Assembly (NCBI RefSeq): GCF_006345805.1 | Contig: NC_043003.1 | Span: 117,118,001-117,182,000 of the forward strand | From: Octopus sinensis | Taxonomy: Eukaryota | Direction: 5' to 3' | Length of the DNA: 64,000 nucleotides | Part shown: positions 2,977 to 63,850 of the stretch, piece after piece | Position numbering within the stretch: position 1 is the stretch's first letter | Layout of the letters: each line of letters opens with the position of its first letter | Translations under genes and position numbers: made by a program | Notes under the pieces: model-generated | Seen by the model: only the letters and a program-made list of their open reading frames with translations | What the model was told of the DNA's origin: nothing | The model's database searches: none

Positions 2977-4243
2977 CGAGGGTAAGTCAAAAATTATCTG
3001 CACTTTGGCCATAACATATCTTTATTATTGTTACACTGCTTTCTGCGCATGCGTGCTTATAGATGGTACTATTGTGTTCACGTGATCGAAGTTTGACCCT
3101 GATCGTGCCATTTTCTTTTTTCTTTCGGGCTTTACAGTATAAGCATAGCCATTCCACAAGCAACGTGCACCAAAGAACAAAGAGCAGTGATCCAGTTTCT
3201 CTGGTCAGAAGTTGTACCAGGTGCTGAAATTCATCGGAGGCTTTTAGCACAAAACGGGGACAGAGCGCTACCGCGTGGAAGTGTGTATGAGTAGATTGAG
3301 AAGTTTAAATGTGACCGGACAAGCTTGACGCAAAAAGACAGAACCGGGCGCCCGTCAGTCAACCTTCACCACTGACGAGAAGACTCAGCAAGACCGAGAC
3401 GGCAATGGTGAACCAGCGAGTTATCATGGTAGCTCGTTCTCTGCAGATTAGTCGTGGTTTTTGCCTATCAAATCATCCACGGCTTCCATAAAATCTGTGC
3501 AAGATGGATGCCAAGGGAGTGTACTGCAGAGCAAAAGCGCAAACGTCTTGAAGCCTGCCAACATTTACTTGATCGCTACAACAATGGGGTGAGGAATTTT
3601 TGAGCAGAATAGTCACAAGAGATGAAACGTGGGTCCGTGATTATGAGACAAAACACAGACTATGGAGTGGAAACATCCCAACTCGCCAGCGACGAAGTAT
3701 TTCAAGACTCAGTTTCCCTTTTTTTTTTGGACTCAAAAGGGCCTATACTGGAAGACTACCTTGAAAAGGGGTGTATGATCAACAGTGCAAGATACAGTGA
3801 TTTGCTGGCCAACAAACTGAAGCCAGCAATTCGCACCAAATGCCAAAGCCTATTGTCAAAGAAAGTGTTGTTGTTGCATTACAATGCACACCCATACACG
3901 GCCACCCAGACTGTTGAAACCATTAATCAATTGGGTTTTGAGGTGCTGGAATACCCTGCCTACAACCCAGATCTCGCCCCTTCCGACTATCATATCTTTC
4001 GACTGATGGAAGATGGTTTACAAGATCGTCGATTTCCTAGAGATGTGAAGGAAGTGGTACATAAATAGTTGCATGACCAACCAAAAACCTTCTTCTTGGA
4101 GGGGATATGCAAGCTTGTGGACCGCTTGACCAAGAGCATCAAAATAGGAGATTATAGAGAAAAATAGCGCATTTGTTTAACCCATGCTTTTGTGTAAATA
4201 CATTGAAAAAGCAAGAGTGCGTATAATTTATGACTCTCCTTCG
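2977..4243 (+). mobile_element. Full-length decayed mariner transposon
   Basis: Imperfect TIRs CGAGGGTAAGTCAAAAATTATCTGCAC / GTGCGTATAATTTATGACTCTCCTTCG, TA on both flanks, ~1.27 kb. Confidence 0.92.
3150..4168 (+). pseudogene. Mariner (DD34D) transposase pseudogene
   Basis: IVTRDETWV, LLHYNAHPY and YPAYNPDLAPSDYHIF motifs spread over several frames, with stops. Confidence 0.9.
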
Positions 4244-14179: not shown

Positions 14180-15436
14180 CAGAGGTTGGACAAAACAATG
14201 GAAACACCTATCATCATAGCATCATAATTTTGAAATATCTATTAAACCACCAAAAGGTTGTTCATTATTTGTTTAGTATTTGTGTTGCTTAATACGTTTT
14301 GCTAAAATTTCTCTTTCTTTTCAGATATTATCAGAAAAAGGTAATTAAAATTCATTAAAATGACTGATCTATCGGACTTTCAGAGAGGTCAAATTTTTGG
14401 TGATCGTATGCCAGGCGCTAGCGTAACAAAACAGTCGAAGTGTTTGGTGTATCAAGAAGTACTCTCTCGAAAGTAATGACAGTCTTTGAGAAAGAGGGAA
14501 AAACCTCCTCGTCGAAAGAAAACTCCAGAAGAAAACTAAAAATTTCAGAATAGTGATCGTCGGAGTCTTACGTGAATTGTTAGAATGGATCACAAAATTA
14601 AAGCACCCAAAATTACTGCAAAGCCTAATGACCACCTCGAGAACGCAGTTTCCACAAAAACTGTTCTCCGGGAGCTGCACAAAGCCGAATCTCACGGAAG
14701 GGCTGTAATCAGAAAACCGCTACTTTCATAAACAAACGTTTCAAAGCGTTTAGAGTAGAGTAAAAACCTACAGAATTGGTCCCTTGAGCAGTGGAAGAAT
14801 GTTATTTTCTCGGACGAGTCATCCTTTACCTTATTTCCGACCACCGGCTGAGTATACGTGTGGAGACAGCCAAAAGACCCAGACTGCCATATTCCAACTA
14901 TTAAACATGGAGGAGGATCTGTGATGGTCTGCGGGGTGCTACATCTTGGACATCCGCCGGTCCAATGATTTCTCTTCATGGCAGAATTAATAGTCACGAC
15001 TATTTAAGCATTTTATCAGATCAAATTCATCCTATGATTGCGGAACTGTTTCCGGAGGGAAACGCAATCTTTCAGGATGATAATGGACCAATTCACACAG
15101 CTAAAGTTGTTACTGAATGGCATAAGGAACATTCTAATGAAGTTGAACATCTTATCTGGCCACCACAGTCCCCAGATCTCAATATTATAGAATATGTAAG
15201 GTGCATTTTAGAAAAACATGTAAGGAGTCGATATCCTCCACCATCATCACCACAAGAACTGGAGACTCTTTTAGCTGAAGAATGGACAAATATTCCTTTG
15301 GAAACAATTTAAACTTTGTACGAGATCATACCTCGTAGAATTCAAGTTGTAATTACTGCCAAAGGCGGTCCTACCCCATATTTAGATAAATTTGTTTGGA
15401 ATATTAAGGTGTTTCCATTATTTTGTCCAACCCCCA
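14180..15436 (+). mobile_element. Full-length decayed Tc1-like transposon
   Basis: TIRs CAGAGGTTGGACAAAACAATGGAAACACC / GGTGTTTCCATTATTTTGTCCAACCCCCA, with TA flanks. Confidence 0.93.
14360..15385 (+). pseudogene. Tc1 (DD34E) transposase pseudogene
   Basis: MTDLSDFQRGQI, WKNVIFSDESSF, IFQDDNGPIHTAK, WPPQSPDLNIIE and AKGGPTPY, with frameshifts and stops. Confidence 0.92.
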
Positions 15437-17972: not shown

Positions 17973-18267
17973 GGAATATTATTCCAAACTTACAGGGAAA
18001 AATTCAATTTAGAAATACTAAATTAATTTCACAAATATAATATATATATATATATACAAATTAGAAAAAAAACACCTTTTATCAATTCAATAATGAAAAA
18101 CTAAATTAATCCATATACTAGCCATCTCAATATAGCTAATCACTAAGGGTGGGTGTTACTGTAGCTTTTAGCCCCAGGAGATCATCGTCTCCAGCTGGCT
18201 TTAGGCACACTTTCTGTGCGCTTATGGTATTTGCAAAGGGAGGTCATCCCTCTCTCGTAAACCTAAG

Positions 18268-18325
18268 CGATACGCACGGACTGCAGTTTCGAGGTAATTT
18301 GCCTCTTGTCAACGTACAGTAATCG
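18268..18325 (-). ncRNA. Type I hammerhead ribozyme motif with U3-A8 core
   Basis: Minus strand: CGATTACTGTACG-TTGACAA-GAGG(CAAATTA)CCTC-GAAA-CTGCAG-TC-CGTGCGTATCG. Helix I is GTACG/CGTGC plus distal CGAT/ATCG; helix III is the palindrome ACTGCAGT; the cleavage triplet is GUC. Confidence 0.75.
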
Positions 18326-19610
18326 TGTGTGTGTGTGTATTGAAATTAGAAATAAGGGCATCTAAGAGATATTTCATTGATGAAGGCAACGTATCTTTAA
18401 GCAGAGCCAGAAACCCAGGGCCTTGAATTGTCCAATTTTTACTAGTGTATTTATCTATTTGTCTTTTCACCTTTTCCTGTATTGAATGCATAATGTGGTA
18501 TTAGAGTCAAGTTTTGACTGCTAGTTCACGCATGGTGGTATCGCTTAGATACCCTTATTTTAAATTTTAATAAGAATTATAACCTATAAGGATTTTTCTT
18601 CCCATGCTGCCACTTGATTTAATCGGTATTTAAATAAGGGTCTTATCCTTATTTATACATATGTATATCTTAAGTTCTGTTAGAATTTTTCCAGAGAAAC
18701 ACTCAGTTCGAACACTGGGCTATCAACACCGTCCGGCTCCAAACCAATGTCGGAAATTCTTCAACCGTAGAAAATCCTGATTTCACAACAGTCACGGCAT
18801 AATGTGAGTTTGGCGACGAGTAAATTATAATTCAAATATTAATAAAACAAAGAAATTCTTTAACACGCCTTTAATGGCTTGTTACAAGTATTTCTGTACC
18901 AACTCTTGGATTATATGTGTGTGCGTGTATGTGTGCGTATGTGTGTATGTGACTGTGTGCGTGTGTATGCGTGTGTATGTGTGTATGTGACTGTGTGTGT
19001 GTGTGTGTACATACATACATACATTAATATATAATATATATATTTACATATAATATATGTGTGTGTGTTCAACTTTACTCATTATGGTAGGTGTGTATGT
19101 GTGTGTGTATTTCATAAAAGACAAGATCCAGCATTATCTATTTTATTACAGACTTTCTATACTTTGGTGTCAATTATTTTGGCAATTATTTCGGCAATTA
19201 TTTAAGAACAGCAATGTTCTTAAATAAGCATTCATATTTCCTACATTTTTACGGTCTCTTTTAATAAAAAAAAAACTGGAATAGTTTTGTCGTCTGCTCT
19301 GCTCTGAAATTCTGTTCGTATTTTTGTAGACTTCCCGCTATGTCTGCCTCAACTTTTTCATAGTCTTCGGCTTTCACATCAGCGGTCAGGAGTTAATTCT
19401 GGTGATAACGATTCTGCCAGCTCGGGCAATAATCTTTATTTATTAGATACACTCAGAAATTACAAGCGTCAACAACATGACTCCTAAGTTGGCCCCTATC
19501 ATGCCCATAATGTTTTGAAAAAGGAAGGCCCTATTGATAAAATATTTTTCGATGCAATAGCATAGGAAGAAATAACTTATACTATCATATATGCACACAA
19601 CTACTAGTAT

Positions 19611-27143: not shown

Positions 27144-27179
27144 TAGTTGAAAAAGTTTCAATGACTGAAACCGGTACTA
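27144..27179 (+). ncRNA. Minimal hammerhead motif with U3-A8 core
   Basis: TAG-TTGAAAA-AGTT(TCAAT)GACT-GAAA-CCGG-TA-CTA; palindrome ACCGGT. Confidence 0.55.
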
Positions 27180-28239: not shown

Positions 28240-28650
28240 CGAACTGGCAGAAACGTTAGCGCACCGGGCGAAAGTCTTAGCGGTATTTCGTCTGCCGTTA
28301 CGTGCTGAGTTCAAATCCCGCCGAGGTTGACTCTGCCTTTCATCCTTTCGGGGTCGATTGAATAAGTACCAGTTACGCACTGGGGTCGATGTAATCGATT
28401 TAGTCTCTTTGTCTGTCCTTGTTTGTCCCCTCTATGTTTCACCCCTTGTGGGTAATAAAGAAACGGGCATTTCGTCTGCCGTTACGTTCTGAGTTCAAAT
28501 TCCGCCGAGGTTGACTTTGCCTTTCATCCTTTTGGGGTCGATTGAATAAGTACCAGTTACGCACTGGGGTCGATGTAATCGATTTAGTCCCTTTGTCTGT
28601 CCTTGTTTGTTCCCTCTATGTTTAGGCCGTTGTGGGCAATAAAGAAATAA
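28240..28650 (+). mobile_element. SINE family B with a tandemly duplicated body
   Basis: ATTTCGTCTGCCGTTACG...AATAAAGAAA occurs twice, with a period of ~183 bp. Confidence 0.9.
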
Positions 28651-41689: not shown

Positions 41690-43495
41690 TCCTTAATACC
41701 GGTTCCCATATGCTATTCATATCTGCACTCTGCTGAGGAGGTTGTTGTGTCCTAGCATATGTGCTGCTTCTTTTAGTTTTCGTATTTTCCAGTGGTGTTC
41801 TCTGTCTATTATTTTGATTTCATCCCACAGGGGGAGATGCTCTCCATTTTTTTCCCATATATGATCAGCTAAACCCGATTTATCAATATCTCCCCGTGTC
41901 ACAGCTTTGCGATGTTCGTCTACTCTTATTTTGAGGGGACAGCATGTTTCGCCTTTATATAACATACCACAACTGCATGGGATGGAGTACACGCGGTTTT
42001 TGTCATATTCTCTTCGGTTTTACCCGAAGGAGATATTTGCGAAGTGTTGTATTATTCTTGAATAATGCCCTGATGTCATATGGGGCGCATATCTTTTTTA
42101 TCTTTTCGAAGAGGCCTTTCACATAGGGTAGGCAGACTGTGGACAGTTTATTGCTTTCATCTTCTCTTTTCTTCATAATTAGAATGGATAGTATATTTTA
42201 AGGGGGTAGTTGTTGCTTAATAGAATGTTACTGAGCTTGATGATTTCTGCGTGGTGTGTTTCACGATCGCTACTTATATTCTTTGCACGATGTTTTAGGC
42301 ACTGAGCAGTCCCGCTCTTTACACAGTATGGATGGTGGGGATTGAAGTTGCGGCATCGTCCAGTAAAGGTCGGTTTGCGGTATACGGATGTCTTGAATCC
42401 ATTCTTGGTGCATGTTTTTAATACCTCCAGGAATGCTAGCTGATTGTCTTTTTTTCCTTTTCCATTGTGAATTTTATGGATGGCTTTATTGAGTTCACAT
42501 GATCAACAGACTTGGACATCTTCCGGGTGGGGCCAGAATATGAAGGTGCCATCAACATATCGCAGCCATTGGCTTACTTTTAGTGGTGTTGATCCTAAAG
42601 CCAAATTCGCAAAGTATTCCACGTATATATTGGATATTGTCGGTGATAATGGCGAACCCATAACTAAACCCTCTTCTTGTCGATATATATCAGTGTCCAT
42701 GTTGTAATAAGTAGTTTCTACACACAAGGTCAACATTTCCATCAAGTTTCTTATTGGTTTACTAGTGCGTTCTTTTAGATGGGCGTCTGTCACTAGTTTC
42801 TCTTGAATCACCGATTGTGCTTCACCAGTTGGGATTTTGGTGAACACACTTATCACATCTAGATTCACCATCTGTTGGATCCAATTGAGGTATCCTTGAC
42901 CAATTCTGTGAAGTGAATGGAATTCTTCACGAACGAGGCTGACTTTCCTGCTAATGGACTGATTATATCCACAAGGAAGCGTCTCAGTGGATACCATGCT
43001 GAACCTCTTCAGGTCACTATTGGTCTTAAAGGAATACCATCCTTGTGAATCTTAGGGAGACCGTGTGTGGTAGTGTTGAGTCAGTTGTTTGTACTTCATT
43101 GGTGTAAAGTGATCCTTGTTCTTAATCAAGATCTGTGACAACTTCTTGTCTGTTTTCAAAGTAGGGTCTTTCTTTTCTTTACTGTAGCTACCATCACTTA
43201 TAAGACTTGCCAATTTTTCCGAGTAGACAGACTTGTTCATCCCCACTGTAGAATTTCCCTTGTCTGCCAGAAGTATTATTATGGAATTGTCACTCTGTAG
43301 TCTTTTGATAGCGAACTTTTCTTCCTTAGTGATGTTTGGTTTTTTCGAAGTTTCGCTTTTTCTAGTACCTGCCTCACTGTCCACCTTAGTTCATCTCCCT
43401 AAGCTTTTGGTATCTTTACAGCTATCTCGTCAATAGGGGCTAATATGTCCAAGTATGGAATGCGCTTGATGGTTGTCGCAAAGTTGAGACCTTTC
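41690..43495 (-). pseudogene. Penelope RT + GIY-YIG endonuclease pseudogene
   Basis: ILLADKGNSTV, VNLDVISVFTKIP, YRQEEGLVMGSPLSPTISNIYVE, WLRYVDGTF and VYSIPCSCGMLYKGETCCPLKIRVDEHRKA; frameshifted. Confidence 0.92.
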
Positions 43496-52446: not shown

Positions 52447-53688
52447 TTACATATCGTCCTCGAAATAGCTTGTGCCCGCGCCCTCCACCATCAACCACGC
52501 CTCCCTCAGAACGTAATCAAGTTCCGAGTTCGCGTCACCCGGGACCAAGCTATAATCTTCATTGAGCTCCTTTAGCCCAAGCGTCACGTCGAACGCCACG
52601 GCCTCCACAGCTATCTGCGGAGGCCATTCGGGGTCCTGTGTGAAGGCTAAAGGAGCTACCTTGTGGTACTCTTCCATCATTTTTTTTTCAATTTCTCCTC
52701 CTCTATAGAAGAGGACCAATACGTTCAGTTCTTTCGTTGGCGGCACAGTTCCCGCCAACGTCTGCGGCTCATGGGTATCAGCCGCCCGACCTTTCTTTCT
52801 TTTTCTCCTCCTTCTTTTGGGGGAGACTGCTGACCCAGGGGACTCCGTCACCAGACACGGGGGATCGCAATCCCCCTCCGCCACCTGAGCGTTCTTTGGC
52901 GAGCAGCCATTGTTGCTCGCCTGTCTCTTTCTTTTCGTGGAGGCAACCTCCTCCACGACTTCCACCGTCTCCCCCTCAAATGAGGGGGCGGCGGGCGCCT
53001 TTTCCCCTTCATGCTCTGGGGCACCACCACGGCCCCCGGGACAATTCCTCTTGATATGTCCGGGCTTCAGGCACAGGTGACACTTGGGGGGGCGTCCCTC
53101 GAGTATCACCGAGTACCTGTGCCCAGCCATTCTCAGGAAGTCCGGGAATTTCATTTCTCCCACGGCCACCGGTGTCCACAGGGTCAAAGTTGCCTTTGAC
53201 CCCTCCCAGGCGACCGCGGGAGCCATTTTCACACTCAGTAGCCTGGGTCCGCTACCCCCCAGGCCTCGCCGGATGGTCTTCTCGATCCATTCCGCCTCCG
53301 TGCCCGGGGGCAGCCCACAAACCCAGGATCTTTTTACTTTTCTGCCACAATACGAGGGGAGGAACAAAATTTCCTCTCCCTCCAGTGGCTCGCTAGCAAA
53401 TCTGCTAGCTTCCTCGGGGGTACCAAACAGCAACCACACCGTTGCAAATTTAGTCCCCCGAGAAATAAACTTTATCGTTGGTAGGTGGTCCCCCAACTCT
53501 TTCTCTATGGTGCTCCTGTCGAAGAGGGCGATAGCTCCACGCGACCTAGAATAGGTTCGTAGGACCACCGTCCTCTTCTCAAGACTTTCAATCCACTGCT
53601 TGGGTGGGACAACCTCCCATTCCAAAGCAGTGGTTTCTTTTGTTGCCATGCTTTTGAAAAAAAGTTCAACTAAAAGTTCAAAGTCCAA
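52447..53688 (-). CDS. Intact LINE ORF1/gag-like nucleic-acid-binding protein with a CCHC zinc knuckle (first ATG at 53650)
   Basis: An uninterrupted 413-codon GC-rich ORF with EGRPPKCHLCLKPGHIKRNCP (CX2CX4HX4C) and a basic KRRRRKRKK tract; the layout is L1/Tx1-like. Confidence 0.85.
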   Translation of the reverse strand: MDFELLVELFFKSMATKETTALEWEVVPPKQWIESLEKRTVVLRTYSRSRGAIALFDRSTIEKELGDHLPTIKFISRGTKFATVWLLFGTPEEASRFASEPLEGEEILFLPSYCGRKVKRSWVCGLPPGTEAEWIEKTIRRGLGGSGPRLLSVKMAPAVAWEGSKATLTLWTPVAVGEMKFPDFLRMAGHRYSVILEGRPPKCHLCLKPGHIKRNCPGGRGGAPEHEGEKAPAAPSFEGETVEVVEEVASTKRKRQASNNGCSPKNAQVAEGDCDPPCLVTESPGSAVSPKRRRRKRKKGRAADTHEPQTLAGTVPPTKELNVLVLFYRGGEIEKKMMEEYHKVAPLAFTQDPEWPPQIAVEAVAFDVTLGLKELNEDYSLVPGDANSELDYVLREAWLMVEGAGTSYFEDDM

Positions 53689-53811
53689 TAAAAAAAAAAC
53701 ACAATGACAGAACAGAAAGACAGAACAGAGAAAAGGACGAAGGAAGACAGTTCAAATAATGGCAACACAGTTCTGCAACTGGTAATCCTCACGAAACAGG
53801 GTACTCCTAGT

Positions 53812-63045: not shown

Positions 63046-63434
63046 CTCAATTCTCTCTTTTATATTGGAGTTTAGTATTTCCAAATATTTATCAATGATA
63101 AGGCGTGTGGAAGTAGAAGTCGTGTTCTTTTGTTTAAATGAACGAAAGGATGAAGCAATGGGCATGTTTTTTGTGTACTGCTCCGTTCGCACGCGAGTTT
63201 GTGTGTGTGTATGTGTGTGTGTGTGCGCGCGTGTGTGTATGTATGTGTTTATATACTGATCATAAAGATAAGTGGTTCTCAGGTAGATGCGCTGCGCTAA
63301 CTGTTAATATAAATTGCTAATATGAAACATTTGTTTTTTTCTTTCCTTATATATTTAGTCATTCTTCTTCCCATCCACCCCACAATATTCGGCGGTTCAA
63401 ACACTACAGGTTACGATTGCTATGTATAATACCA

Positions 63435-63850
63435 ATTTCTTTATTACCCACAAGGGGTTAAACACAGAGAGGACAAACAAAGACAGACAACCGGATTAAG
63501 TCGATTACATCGACCCCAGTGCGTAACTGGTACTTATTTAATCGACCCCGAAAGGATGAAAGGCAAAGTCGACCTCGGCGGAATTTGAACTCAGAACGTA
63601 GCGGCAGACGAAATACCTATTTCTTTACTACCCACAAGGGGTTAAACACAGAGGGGACAAACAAGGACAGACAACCGGATTACGTCGATTATATCGACCC
63701 CAGTGTGTAACTGGTACTTAATTAATCGACCCCGAAAGGATGAAAGGCAAAGTCGACCTCGGCGGAATTTGAACTCAGAACGTAGCGGCAGACGAAATAC
63801 AGCTAAGCATTTCGTCCGACGTGCTAACGATTCCGCCAGCTCGCCGCCTT
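63435..63850 (-). mobile_element. SINE family B with a tandemly duplicated body
   Basis: Two ~183 bp body copies followed by the head GCTCGCCGCC. Confidence 0.92.

What the first reader, a model, noticed from the sequence alone, without database searches (positions are those of the whole stretch)
18268..18325. Well-formed hammerhead with a compensatory U3-A8 core
Seen: GTACG-UUGACAA-GAGG/CCUC-GAAA-CUGCAG-UC-CGUGC, with all helices intact. Established: positions 3 and 8 form a Watson-Crick pair in the active fold, and U3-A8 can substitute for C3-G8. Searches restricted to CUGANGA would miss it. Inference: an active natural core variant that probably cleaves as a dimer through the palindrome ACUGCAGU.
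Basis: partly seen in the sequence, partly recalled or inferred. Interest (0 to 1): 0.75.

Follow-up and report, generated by a model that had tools for sequence, protein, structure and literature searches.

The report
Core-swapped hammerhead in jumping RNA
This is a cut-down copy of a small protein-free jumping element whose predicted self-cutting RNA carries a swapped core base pair (U-A instead of C-G) that is already in print for other elements; this family is useful because older copies show the swap likely arose once and then spread.

Summary
The motif is real, on the minus strand: a type I hammerhead with U3 at 18312, A8 at 18307 and a predicted cut at 18279/18278. It lies in a 211-base, 5'-truncated, solitary copy (18114-18324) of a ~356-base non-coding repeat that forms head-to-tail tandems. 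Of 442 exact genome matches, 159 are U3-A8, 270 C3-G8, 8 scattered mismatches and 5 unlisted. On trees, U3-A8 is the youngest branch, so this is probably one event, not 159. It came with a second paired change (C10.1·A11.1 to G-C). An older subfamily has a different palindrome (ACCCGGGU), which supports dimer pairing. Copies end at two fixed sites; 23 of 30 back-to-back insertions use one of each and none uses the same site twice, matching Penelope-type reverse transcription. Best reading: a non-autonomous Penelope-driven retrozyme with a likely active core; cleavage is untested. This copy has no partner and is predicted to misfold as a monomer, so it is probably a fossil. Natural U3-A8 cores were published in 2011 and 2014. 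The scan noted similar U3-A8 retrozymes on other DNA, in this genome and others.

The parts
18114..18324 (-). 5'-truncated, one-armed copy (211 bases) of a ~356-base hammerhead retrozyme; its 3' end is at the family's 'short' end
   Evidence: About 92-98% identity to U3-A8 copies, with homology stopping at both ends; 3' end class
18269..18324 (-). Type I hammerhead motif, including what remains of the outer part of helix I
18306..18312 (-). Core UUGACAA: U3 = 18312, A8 = 18307
   Evidence: sequence; genome counts
18291..18305 (-). Helix II (G10.1-C11.1 closing pair) with loop CAAAUUA, a one-U insertion variant of the commoner CAAAUA
   Evidence: CAAAUA is the Schistosoma loop 2 in PMC2632901
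18280..18287 (-). Helix III palindrome ACUGCAGU: 2 bp as a monomer, 8 bp as a dimer
18278..18279 (-). Predicted cleavage site, after C17 (GUC)
   Evidence: hammerhead numbering; weak RNA hint from another copy
18318..18318 (-). C-to-T change at a CpG site, predicted to favour a competing monomer fold; shared by 3 of 37 aligned U3-A8 copies
   Evidence: that this base causes the misfold is inference
18325..18338 (.). (GT/AC)n microsatellite at the 5' junction; no target-site duplication seen
   Evidence: sequence

Best explanation
The motif is the hammerhead of a truncated copy of a ~356-base protein-free repeat that is likely a Penelope-driven retrozyme, and its U3-A8 core is a likely functional swap shared by 159 genome matches. 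Shown: the repeat encodes no long frame, occurs as head-to-tail tandems and circularly permuted copies, ends at two fixed sites about 47 bases apart, and forms back-to-back pairs using one end of each kind. Inferred: tandem copies are transcribed; two hammerheads pair through the palindrome and cut each other after GUC; the monomer is circularised by a host ligase; and a Penelope-type reverse transcriptase/GIY-YIG enzyme nicks TA-rich DNA and primes from two internal sites on the RNA. Inferred history: an older C3-G8, C10.1·A11.1 lineage gave rise once to U3-A8, probably first on the C·A background. G10.1-C11.1 was then gained, and that form amplified. This window copy is probably an inert fossil.
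For: Counts: 159 U3-A8, 270 C3-G8, 3 U3-nonA, 5 C3-nonG, 5 unlisted, of 442. Tandems at 353-358 bases at four distinct places. 3' ends: 36 of 70 copies at +195-212 and 23 of 70 at +245-258; TATA at 25 of 59 such ends against 9.6% background. Head-to-head pairs in 30 of 63 loci: 23 long+short, 0 same-end, 7 with one arm ending elsewhere. PMC11167929 shows two internal initiation sites, extension of both strands and AT-rich targets for a Penelope protein. An intact 780-codon RT + GIY-YIG element is in the genome with two 3' ends and (TA)n flanks. Covariation on 49 distinct rows: 11 of 21 pairs change on both sides, including 18 rows at each of the two inner palindrome pairs; slid controls give 2-4 pairs. 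On a tree without the core columns, rooted on the older subfamily, all 29 U3-A8 rows lie in a terminal 31-row clade (99/96), and single origin is not rejected (AU p 0.48). U3-A8 is reported as active in vitro (PMC3088659, citing a paper I could not open). Weak hint: one contig in run X11 has a template-switch-type adapter joined 1-2 bases from the predicted cut.
Against: No cleavage or circular RNA was shown. The covariation is inherited: about one event per pair, not one per copy. U3-A8 monophyly is unresolved when the core is left out: 3 changes on the 3'-flank tree (AU p 0.28), and 2 C3-G8 rows sit inside the terminal clade. No sequence link to a Penelope terminal repeat was found in 30 of 147 scored GIY-YIG loci, apart from an older retrozyme copy lying in L095, so the helper element is not identified. 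In PMC11167929, hammerhead mutants did not affect insertion in vitro, and the ribozyme needed protein. Several contigs of run X2 bridge the cut site. The adapter-bearing contig does not cover the core and matched none of my fetched copies exactly. Seven of 70 copies (five ending before +195, besides tandem run-throughs) and 7 of 30 pairs do not fit the two-end rule cleanly.
Confidence: 0.78

Rival explanations
1. U3-A8 is a weak or dead core that spread as a passenger. Either cutting is not needed for insertion, or C3-G8 partners that share the palindrome cut the U3-A8 RNA in mixed dimers.
For: Mixed loci exist: L132 has a U3-A8 unit followed 353 bases later by a C3-G8 unit, and L012 and L137 have opposite arms with different cores. 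In the modelled double hammerhead each core faces the partner's cut site. Hammerhead mutants still inserted in vitro (PMC11167929). Minimal Penelope hammerheads cut poorly (PMC4209133).
Against: The four changes at 3, 8, 10.1 and 11.1 form two Watson-Crick pairs, and only 1 of 8 majority differences from the nearest C3-G8 copies lies downstream of the ribozyme (the group labels fix those four columns, and the near copies were picked as nearest). No single-mismatch subfamily amplified. Pure U3-A8 tandems exist (L015).
Confidence: 0.13
2. The ribozyme is active mainly as a monomer, helped by loop 1-loop 2 contacts, and the palindrome is secondary. This concerns the mode of cutting and is compatible with the retrozyme reading.
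For: Coral (about 0.8/min) and mussel (about 0.1/min) retrozyme monomers cut during transcription (PMC7229834). The U after helix I and the 3' A of loop 2 are each kept in at least 90% of rows, as in the contact described in PMC2632901.
Against: The innermost palindrome positions covary (GC 27, CG 16, UG 2, other 4 of 49), although adjacent bases cannot pair within one strand. Monomer helix III probability was 0.00 in all 10 copies folded, and dimers were 6.7 and 9.7 kcal/mol more stable than two monomers.
Confidence: 0.25
3. The unit is only the terminal repeat (pLTR) of an autonomous Penelope-like element, and this copy is a stub of it.
For: U3-A8 was described in pLTRs (PMC4209133). Ends and inversions are Penelope-like. 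A 2026 preprint derives retrozymes from pLTRs.
Against: Upstream of the hammerhead the copies run into their own 3' end, head to tail, not into a coding frame. The commonest autonomous family sampled has an unrelated hammerhead. Only 30 GIY-YIG loci were examined.
Confidence: 0.07
4. This copy has been adopted as a regulatory ribozyme in a host transcript.
For: The core is intact.
Against: It is about 95% identical to the subfamily majority, like other copies. No partner lies in the window and the monomer is predicted to misfold. The two Pfam hits among the seven window frames tested are transposon domains. An intronic position was not excluded.
Confidence: 0.02

Closest known systems
Metazoan non-LTR retrozymes (coral, mussel, axolotl; PMC7229834, passages and discussion read; bioRxiv 10.64898/2026.07.22.740005, part 1 of 5 and passages read)
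   Same: Non-coding tandem unit in the mussel size range (350-390 bases), one type I hammerhead per unit, short palindromic helix III, co-occurrence with Penelope-like elements.
   Different: U3-A8 core, and a C10.1·A11.1 mismatch in older subfamilies. Mostly dispersed one- or two-armed insertions rather than long arrays. Circular RNA not shown here. 'Octopus' does not occur in the main text of either paper; supplements not seen.
U3-A8 minimal hammerheads of Schistosoma Cercyon elements (PMC4209133, parts 1-2 of 4 read; about 1,300 hits reported)
   Same: Same core covariation, same blind spot of CUGANGA descriptors, Penelope link, close pairs on opposite strands.
   Different: Here the ribozyme has the canonical shape (6-bp helix I, 4-bp helix II, CAAAUA-type loop) and sits in a non-autonomous unit, with the C3-G8 ancestor still present.
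Natural U3-A8 hammerheads of Perreault et al. 2011 (PMC3088659, section 8 and passages read)
   Same: C3-G8 to U3-A8 covariation in nature; palindromic weak helix III; tolerated mismatch at 10.1-11.1 (U-U there).
   Different: That section reports scattered examples; it does not trace a swap within one family.
Penelope/Poseidon element PAc of Anolis (PMC11167929, main text read)
   Same: Two initiation sites giving an optional tail, both strands extended, AT-rich targets, hammerhead with a 3-8 pair.
   Different: PAc is autonomous; its tail is 30-40 bases against about 47 here.

Membership tests
Type I hammerhead ribozyme | Core N3-UGA-N-N8-A and GAA with a Watson-Crick 3-8 pair, A15.1-U16.1 and an NUH site | tested here: met
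   U3-A8, GUC site; 429 of 442 matches paired at 3-8
Type I hammerhead ribozyme | Three helices supported by covariation | tested here: met
   89.6% of cells paired; 11 of 21 pairs change on both sides; slid controls 23-51% paired; relatedness inflates the counts
Type I hammerhead ribozyme | Loop 1 U / loop 2 3'-A tertiary contact | tested here: inconclusive
   Both bases at least 90% conserved and match PMC2632901; the contact itself cannot be tested here
Type I hammerhead ribozyme | Match to an Rfam hammerhead model | tested here: not met
   No hammerhead family at gathering score or E<=10; no canonical-core relative was run as a control
Type I hammerhead ribozyme | Site-specific self-cleavage | not testable with these tools
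   Only a one-contig hint
Non-LTR retrozyme | Short non-coding unit in head-to-tail tandems, each with a hammerhead | tested here: met
   353-358-base spacing at L015, L126, L131, L132; the window copy itself is a partial monomer
Non-LTR retrozyme | Accumulates as monomer or circular RNA | tested here: inconclusive
   Head-to-tail joints appear in all 8 runs laid, whatever their kind, so they do not show circles
Penelope-mobilised insertion | Two fixed 3' ends (tail), inverted 5' arm, AT-rich target | tested here: met
   59 of 70 ends at two sites; 23 of 30 pairs long+short, none same-end
Autonomous Penelope-like element | RT plus GIY-YIG frame between terminal repeats | tested here: not met
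   No such frame joined to the unit in the loci read (outputs of 15 and 19 partly cut)

The most novel reading that the evidence does not exclude
The family preserves a stepwise natural path through a ribozyme's active site. C3-G8 with a C10.1·A11.1 mismatch became U3-A8 with C·A (3 copies, 2 with ancestral-type flanks), then U3-A8 with G10.1-C11.1 (the amplified form). Restoring the helix II closing pair would compensate the weaker U-A core pair, and pairing with C3-G8 partners in mixed dimers would have sheltered the single-mismatch step. That would show catalysis under selection in a Penelope-driven retrozyme, and complementation between ribozyme alleles as a route across a fitness valley.
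Probability: 0.25. Interest if true: 0.65.

Novelty: new member of a known kind. Interest (0 to 1): 0.38.

Why it matters
The core swap and the element class are both published, so the motif alone is no surprise. The value lies in the family. It supplies natural ancestor, intermediate and derived ribozymes for a direct test of coupling between the 3-8 and 10.1-11.1 pairs. It gives covariation evidence for dimer pairing. Its insertion ends tie an animal retrozyme to Penelope-type priming, a link the 2020 paper proposed without showing it. It also shows that searches fixed on CUGANGA miss about a third of the matches in this family.

Tried and rejected
Rfam: nothing. A first idea of a ~100-base tandem or a MITE from the 34-base inverted repeat at 18338-18572 was rejected: that stretch belongs to a separate older repeat. 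Sequencing runs: no RNA holder listed; all runs are contigs, so depth, strand and ends were not used as evidence. Head-to-tail joints were rejected as evidence of circles. Assigning the X11 contig to a genomic copy failed: no fetched copy had all 5 listed differences without others. Its letters at two diagnostic places match 6 U3-A8, 1 C3-G8 and 2 uncalled copies among 31 rows from L031-L060. The tree includes the label's own columns, and the tree had two mislabelled rows; both were redone without the core (4 of 81 and 40 of 93 rows dropped for short cover, the window copy among the 40). The five U3-A8 copies with G10.1·A11.1 are not counted as intermediates: the three placed are scattered on the tree and may be recombinants. 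A relaxed scan gave one more window hit at 27147, judged chance. Three primary papers were not held, so no rates for U3-A8 are quoted. An earlier-findings search by sequence returned nothing.

Full report
Observation. U3 is 18312, A8 18307, G12 18290 and C17 18279; the predicted cut is 18279/18278. It is the only strict type I hit in the window, against 0.05 U3-A8 hits per shuffled window (20 shuffles). Rfam reports no hammerhead. The genome is a 2.7-Gb animal assembly. Earlier scan notes call it octopus-like; I did not test that.

The element. A DNA search gave 43 matches from 40 scored candidates of 1,047. Homology covers 18114-18324. Longer copies run upstream into their own 3' end, and hammerheads recur at 353-358 bases at four places, so the unit is a ~356-base head-to-tail monomer. 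I saw no coding frame of its own (output partly cut). The window copy begins 12 bases before U3 beside an (AC)n run and has lost most of the long arm that extends helix I in full copies.

The 3-8 pair. An exact pattern with positions 3, 7 and 8 free has 442 matches and the control 0: 159 U3-A8, 270 C3-G8, 3 U3 without A8, one of them a deletion, 5 C3 without G8, and 5 unlisted by subtraction. These are lower bounds. The mismatches are all different single copies, as decay after insertion would give.

History. An older subfamily turned up at L095. A pattern excluding the young palindrome gave 188 matches, mostly CCCGGG among those listed. Of 29 older-type rows, 22 have C3-G8, 1 C3-A8 and 6 no core called; 20 of the 23 called have C10.1·A11.1. 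On a tree built without the core and rooted on these rows (an assumption based on their greater divergence), C3-G8 subfamilies form a ladder. All 29 U3-A8 rows fall in the last clade with 2 C3-G8 rows (99/96; single origin not rejected, AU p 0.48; 53 of 93 rows kept). The 3' flank alone resolves less (3 changes, AU p 0.28). U3-A8 copies are 3.5% from their majority and C3-G8 copies 6.5% (the first sample was chosen by similarity and the second pools subfamilies). Between U3-A8 and its five nearest C3-G8 copies, 8 of 162 columns differ, 7 of them in the ribozyme: positions 3, 7, 8, 10.1, 11.1, loop 1 and loop 2 (four are fixed by the labels). Nine matches combine U3-A8 with A11.1. Three keep C10.1·A11.1; two of these have the ancestral upstream flank, and the two placed on the tree sit at the base of the clade. 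Five have G·A and may be recombinants, and one is aberrant. The order 'core first, helix II second' is therefore suggested, not shown.

Dimer. On 49 distinct rows, 11 of 21 pairs change on both sides, against 2-4 in slid controls. The two inner palindrome pairs switch together between ACUGCAGU and ACCCGGGU (18 rows each). Those bases cannot pair within one strand, so the pattern points to pairing between two molecules; this is one inherited event. Folded as dimers, the window copy and L052 give double hammerheads, 6.7 and 9.7 kcal/mol below two monomers. Against an obligate dimer, coral and mussel monomers cut during transcription (PMC7229834).

This copy. No second family hammerhead lies in the window. 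A C-to-T change at 18318 lets the 5' arm pair with the palindrome: helix I probability is 0.04 or less, against 0.99 in five other U3-A8 copies. One C3-G8 copy, L058, also misfolds. The copy is most likely inert unless it pairs in trans.

Mobility. Of 70 copies, 36 end at +195-212 and 23 at +245-258 from position 3; 25 of these 59 ends carry TATA, against 9.6% background. Prompted by an earlier scan note, I scored back-to-back arms: 30 of 63 loci have them, 23 pair a long with a short end, none pairs like ends, and 7 have one arm ending elsewhere. PMC11167929 reports two internal initiation sites, extension of both strands and AT-rich cutting for a Penelope protein. PMC8557442 describes the tail and the inverted arm (passages). 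The genome holds intact RT + GIY-YIG elements with two 3' ends and (TA)n flanks. No sequence match to the retrozyme was found in the 30 loci fetched, apart from the older copy in L095, so the helper is inferred.

RNA. All runs are contigs and none is on record as RNA. In X11, 1 of 9 laid records has a 27-letter loose end at L026:1548, where the predicted cut follows 1546. Its first 25 letters occur in 40 papers that also mention template switching (listing only). This fits a cDNA end at the cut, but it is one contig in one run and does not cover the core, and X2 contigs bridge the site. It is a hint only.

Prior art. Natural U3-A8 covariation was reported in 2011 and called active in vitro (PMC3088659), and about 1,300 hits were reported in Schistosoma Penelope elements in 2014 (PMC4209133). 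Retrozymes and their proposed Penelope helpers date from 2020 and 2026. Six searches listed no title on a cephalopod retrozyme; a squid genome paper only counts 235 hammerheads. Supplements were not read and could hold such entries. PMC3884650 and PMC2920678 were seen as passages; the first confirms the C3-G8 pair.

Verdict. A real motif in a new member of a known class, with a known core variant. The retrozyme reading is about 0.8 likely, an active U3-A8 core in the family about 0.8, and activity of this copy in place under 0.15 (my estimates). Interest 0.38, mainly for the natural series of intermediates.

Noticed in passing
L073, L075, L076, L085, L088-L098 (3' of the GIY-YIG frame); L138:6662: The commonest autonomous Penelope-like family sampled carries its own unrelated U3-A8 minimal hammerhead (UUGAUAA, palindrome ACAUGU, weak helix I) in 15 of 18 loci, so the swap occurs at least twice in this genome.
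   Followed up: partly
L132, L012, L137: U3-A8 and C3-G8 units occur in one insertion, in direct tandem (L132, 353 bases apart) or as opposite arms, which suggests template switching between subfamily RNAs.
   Followed up: partly
L139 / L015 (G000:C8, about 14.416-14.418 Mb): A 986-base fragment with a zf-RVT domain is inserted in the tandem array just upstream of a hammerhead, with a 13-base duplication. Earlier notes describe retrozymes as landing sites of a second retrotransposon.
   Followed up: partly
window 18338-18572: Piece of an older repeat (1,278 candidates, about 72-87% identity, often in opposite-strand pairs) with a 34-base inverted arm at 18338-18371 next to the retrozyme.
   Followed up: partly
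older subfamilies, L031-L059 and L099-L128: Nearly all C3-G8 copies have a C10.1·A11.1 mismatch at what is usually the most conserved helix II pair, kept through several amplification waves.
   Followed up: partly
window 42503-43390 (-): Broken reverse transcriptase fragment (RVT_1 hit), 27% identical to the L076 Penelope-like protein.
   Followed up: partly
window 52447-53751 (-), 14905-15312 (+), 3613-4068 (+): A 434-codon frame resembling a LINE ORF1 (recalled likeness, no Pfam hit), a DDE_3 transposase piece, and a mariner-like piece (recalled likeness, no Pfam hit).
   Followed up: no
window 28285-28647 and 63428-63800: Two 184-base tandem dimers of what looks like one SINE-like repeat, in opposite orientations.
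   Followed up: no
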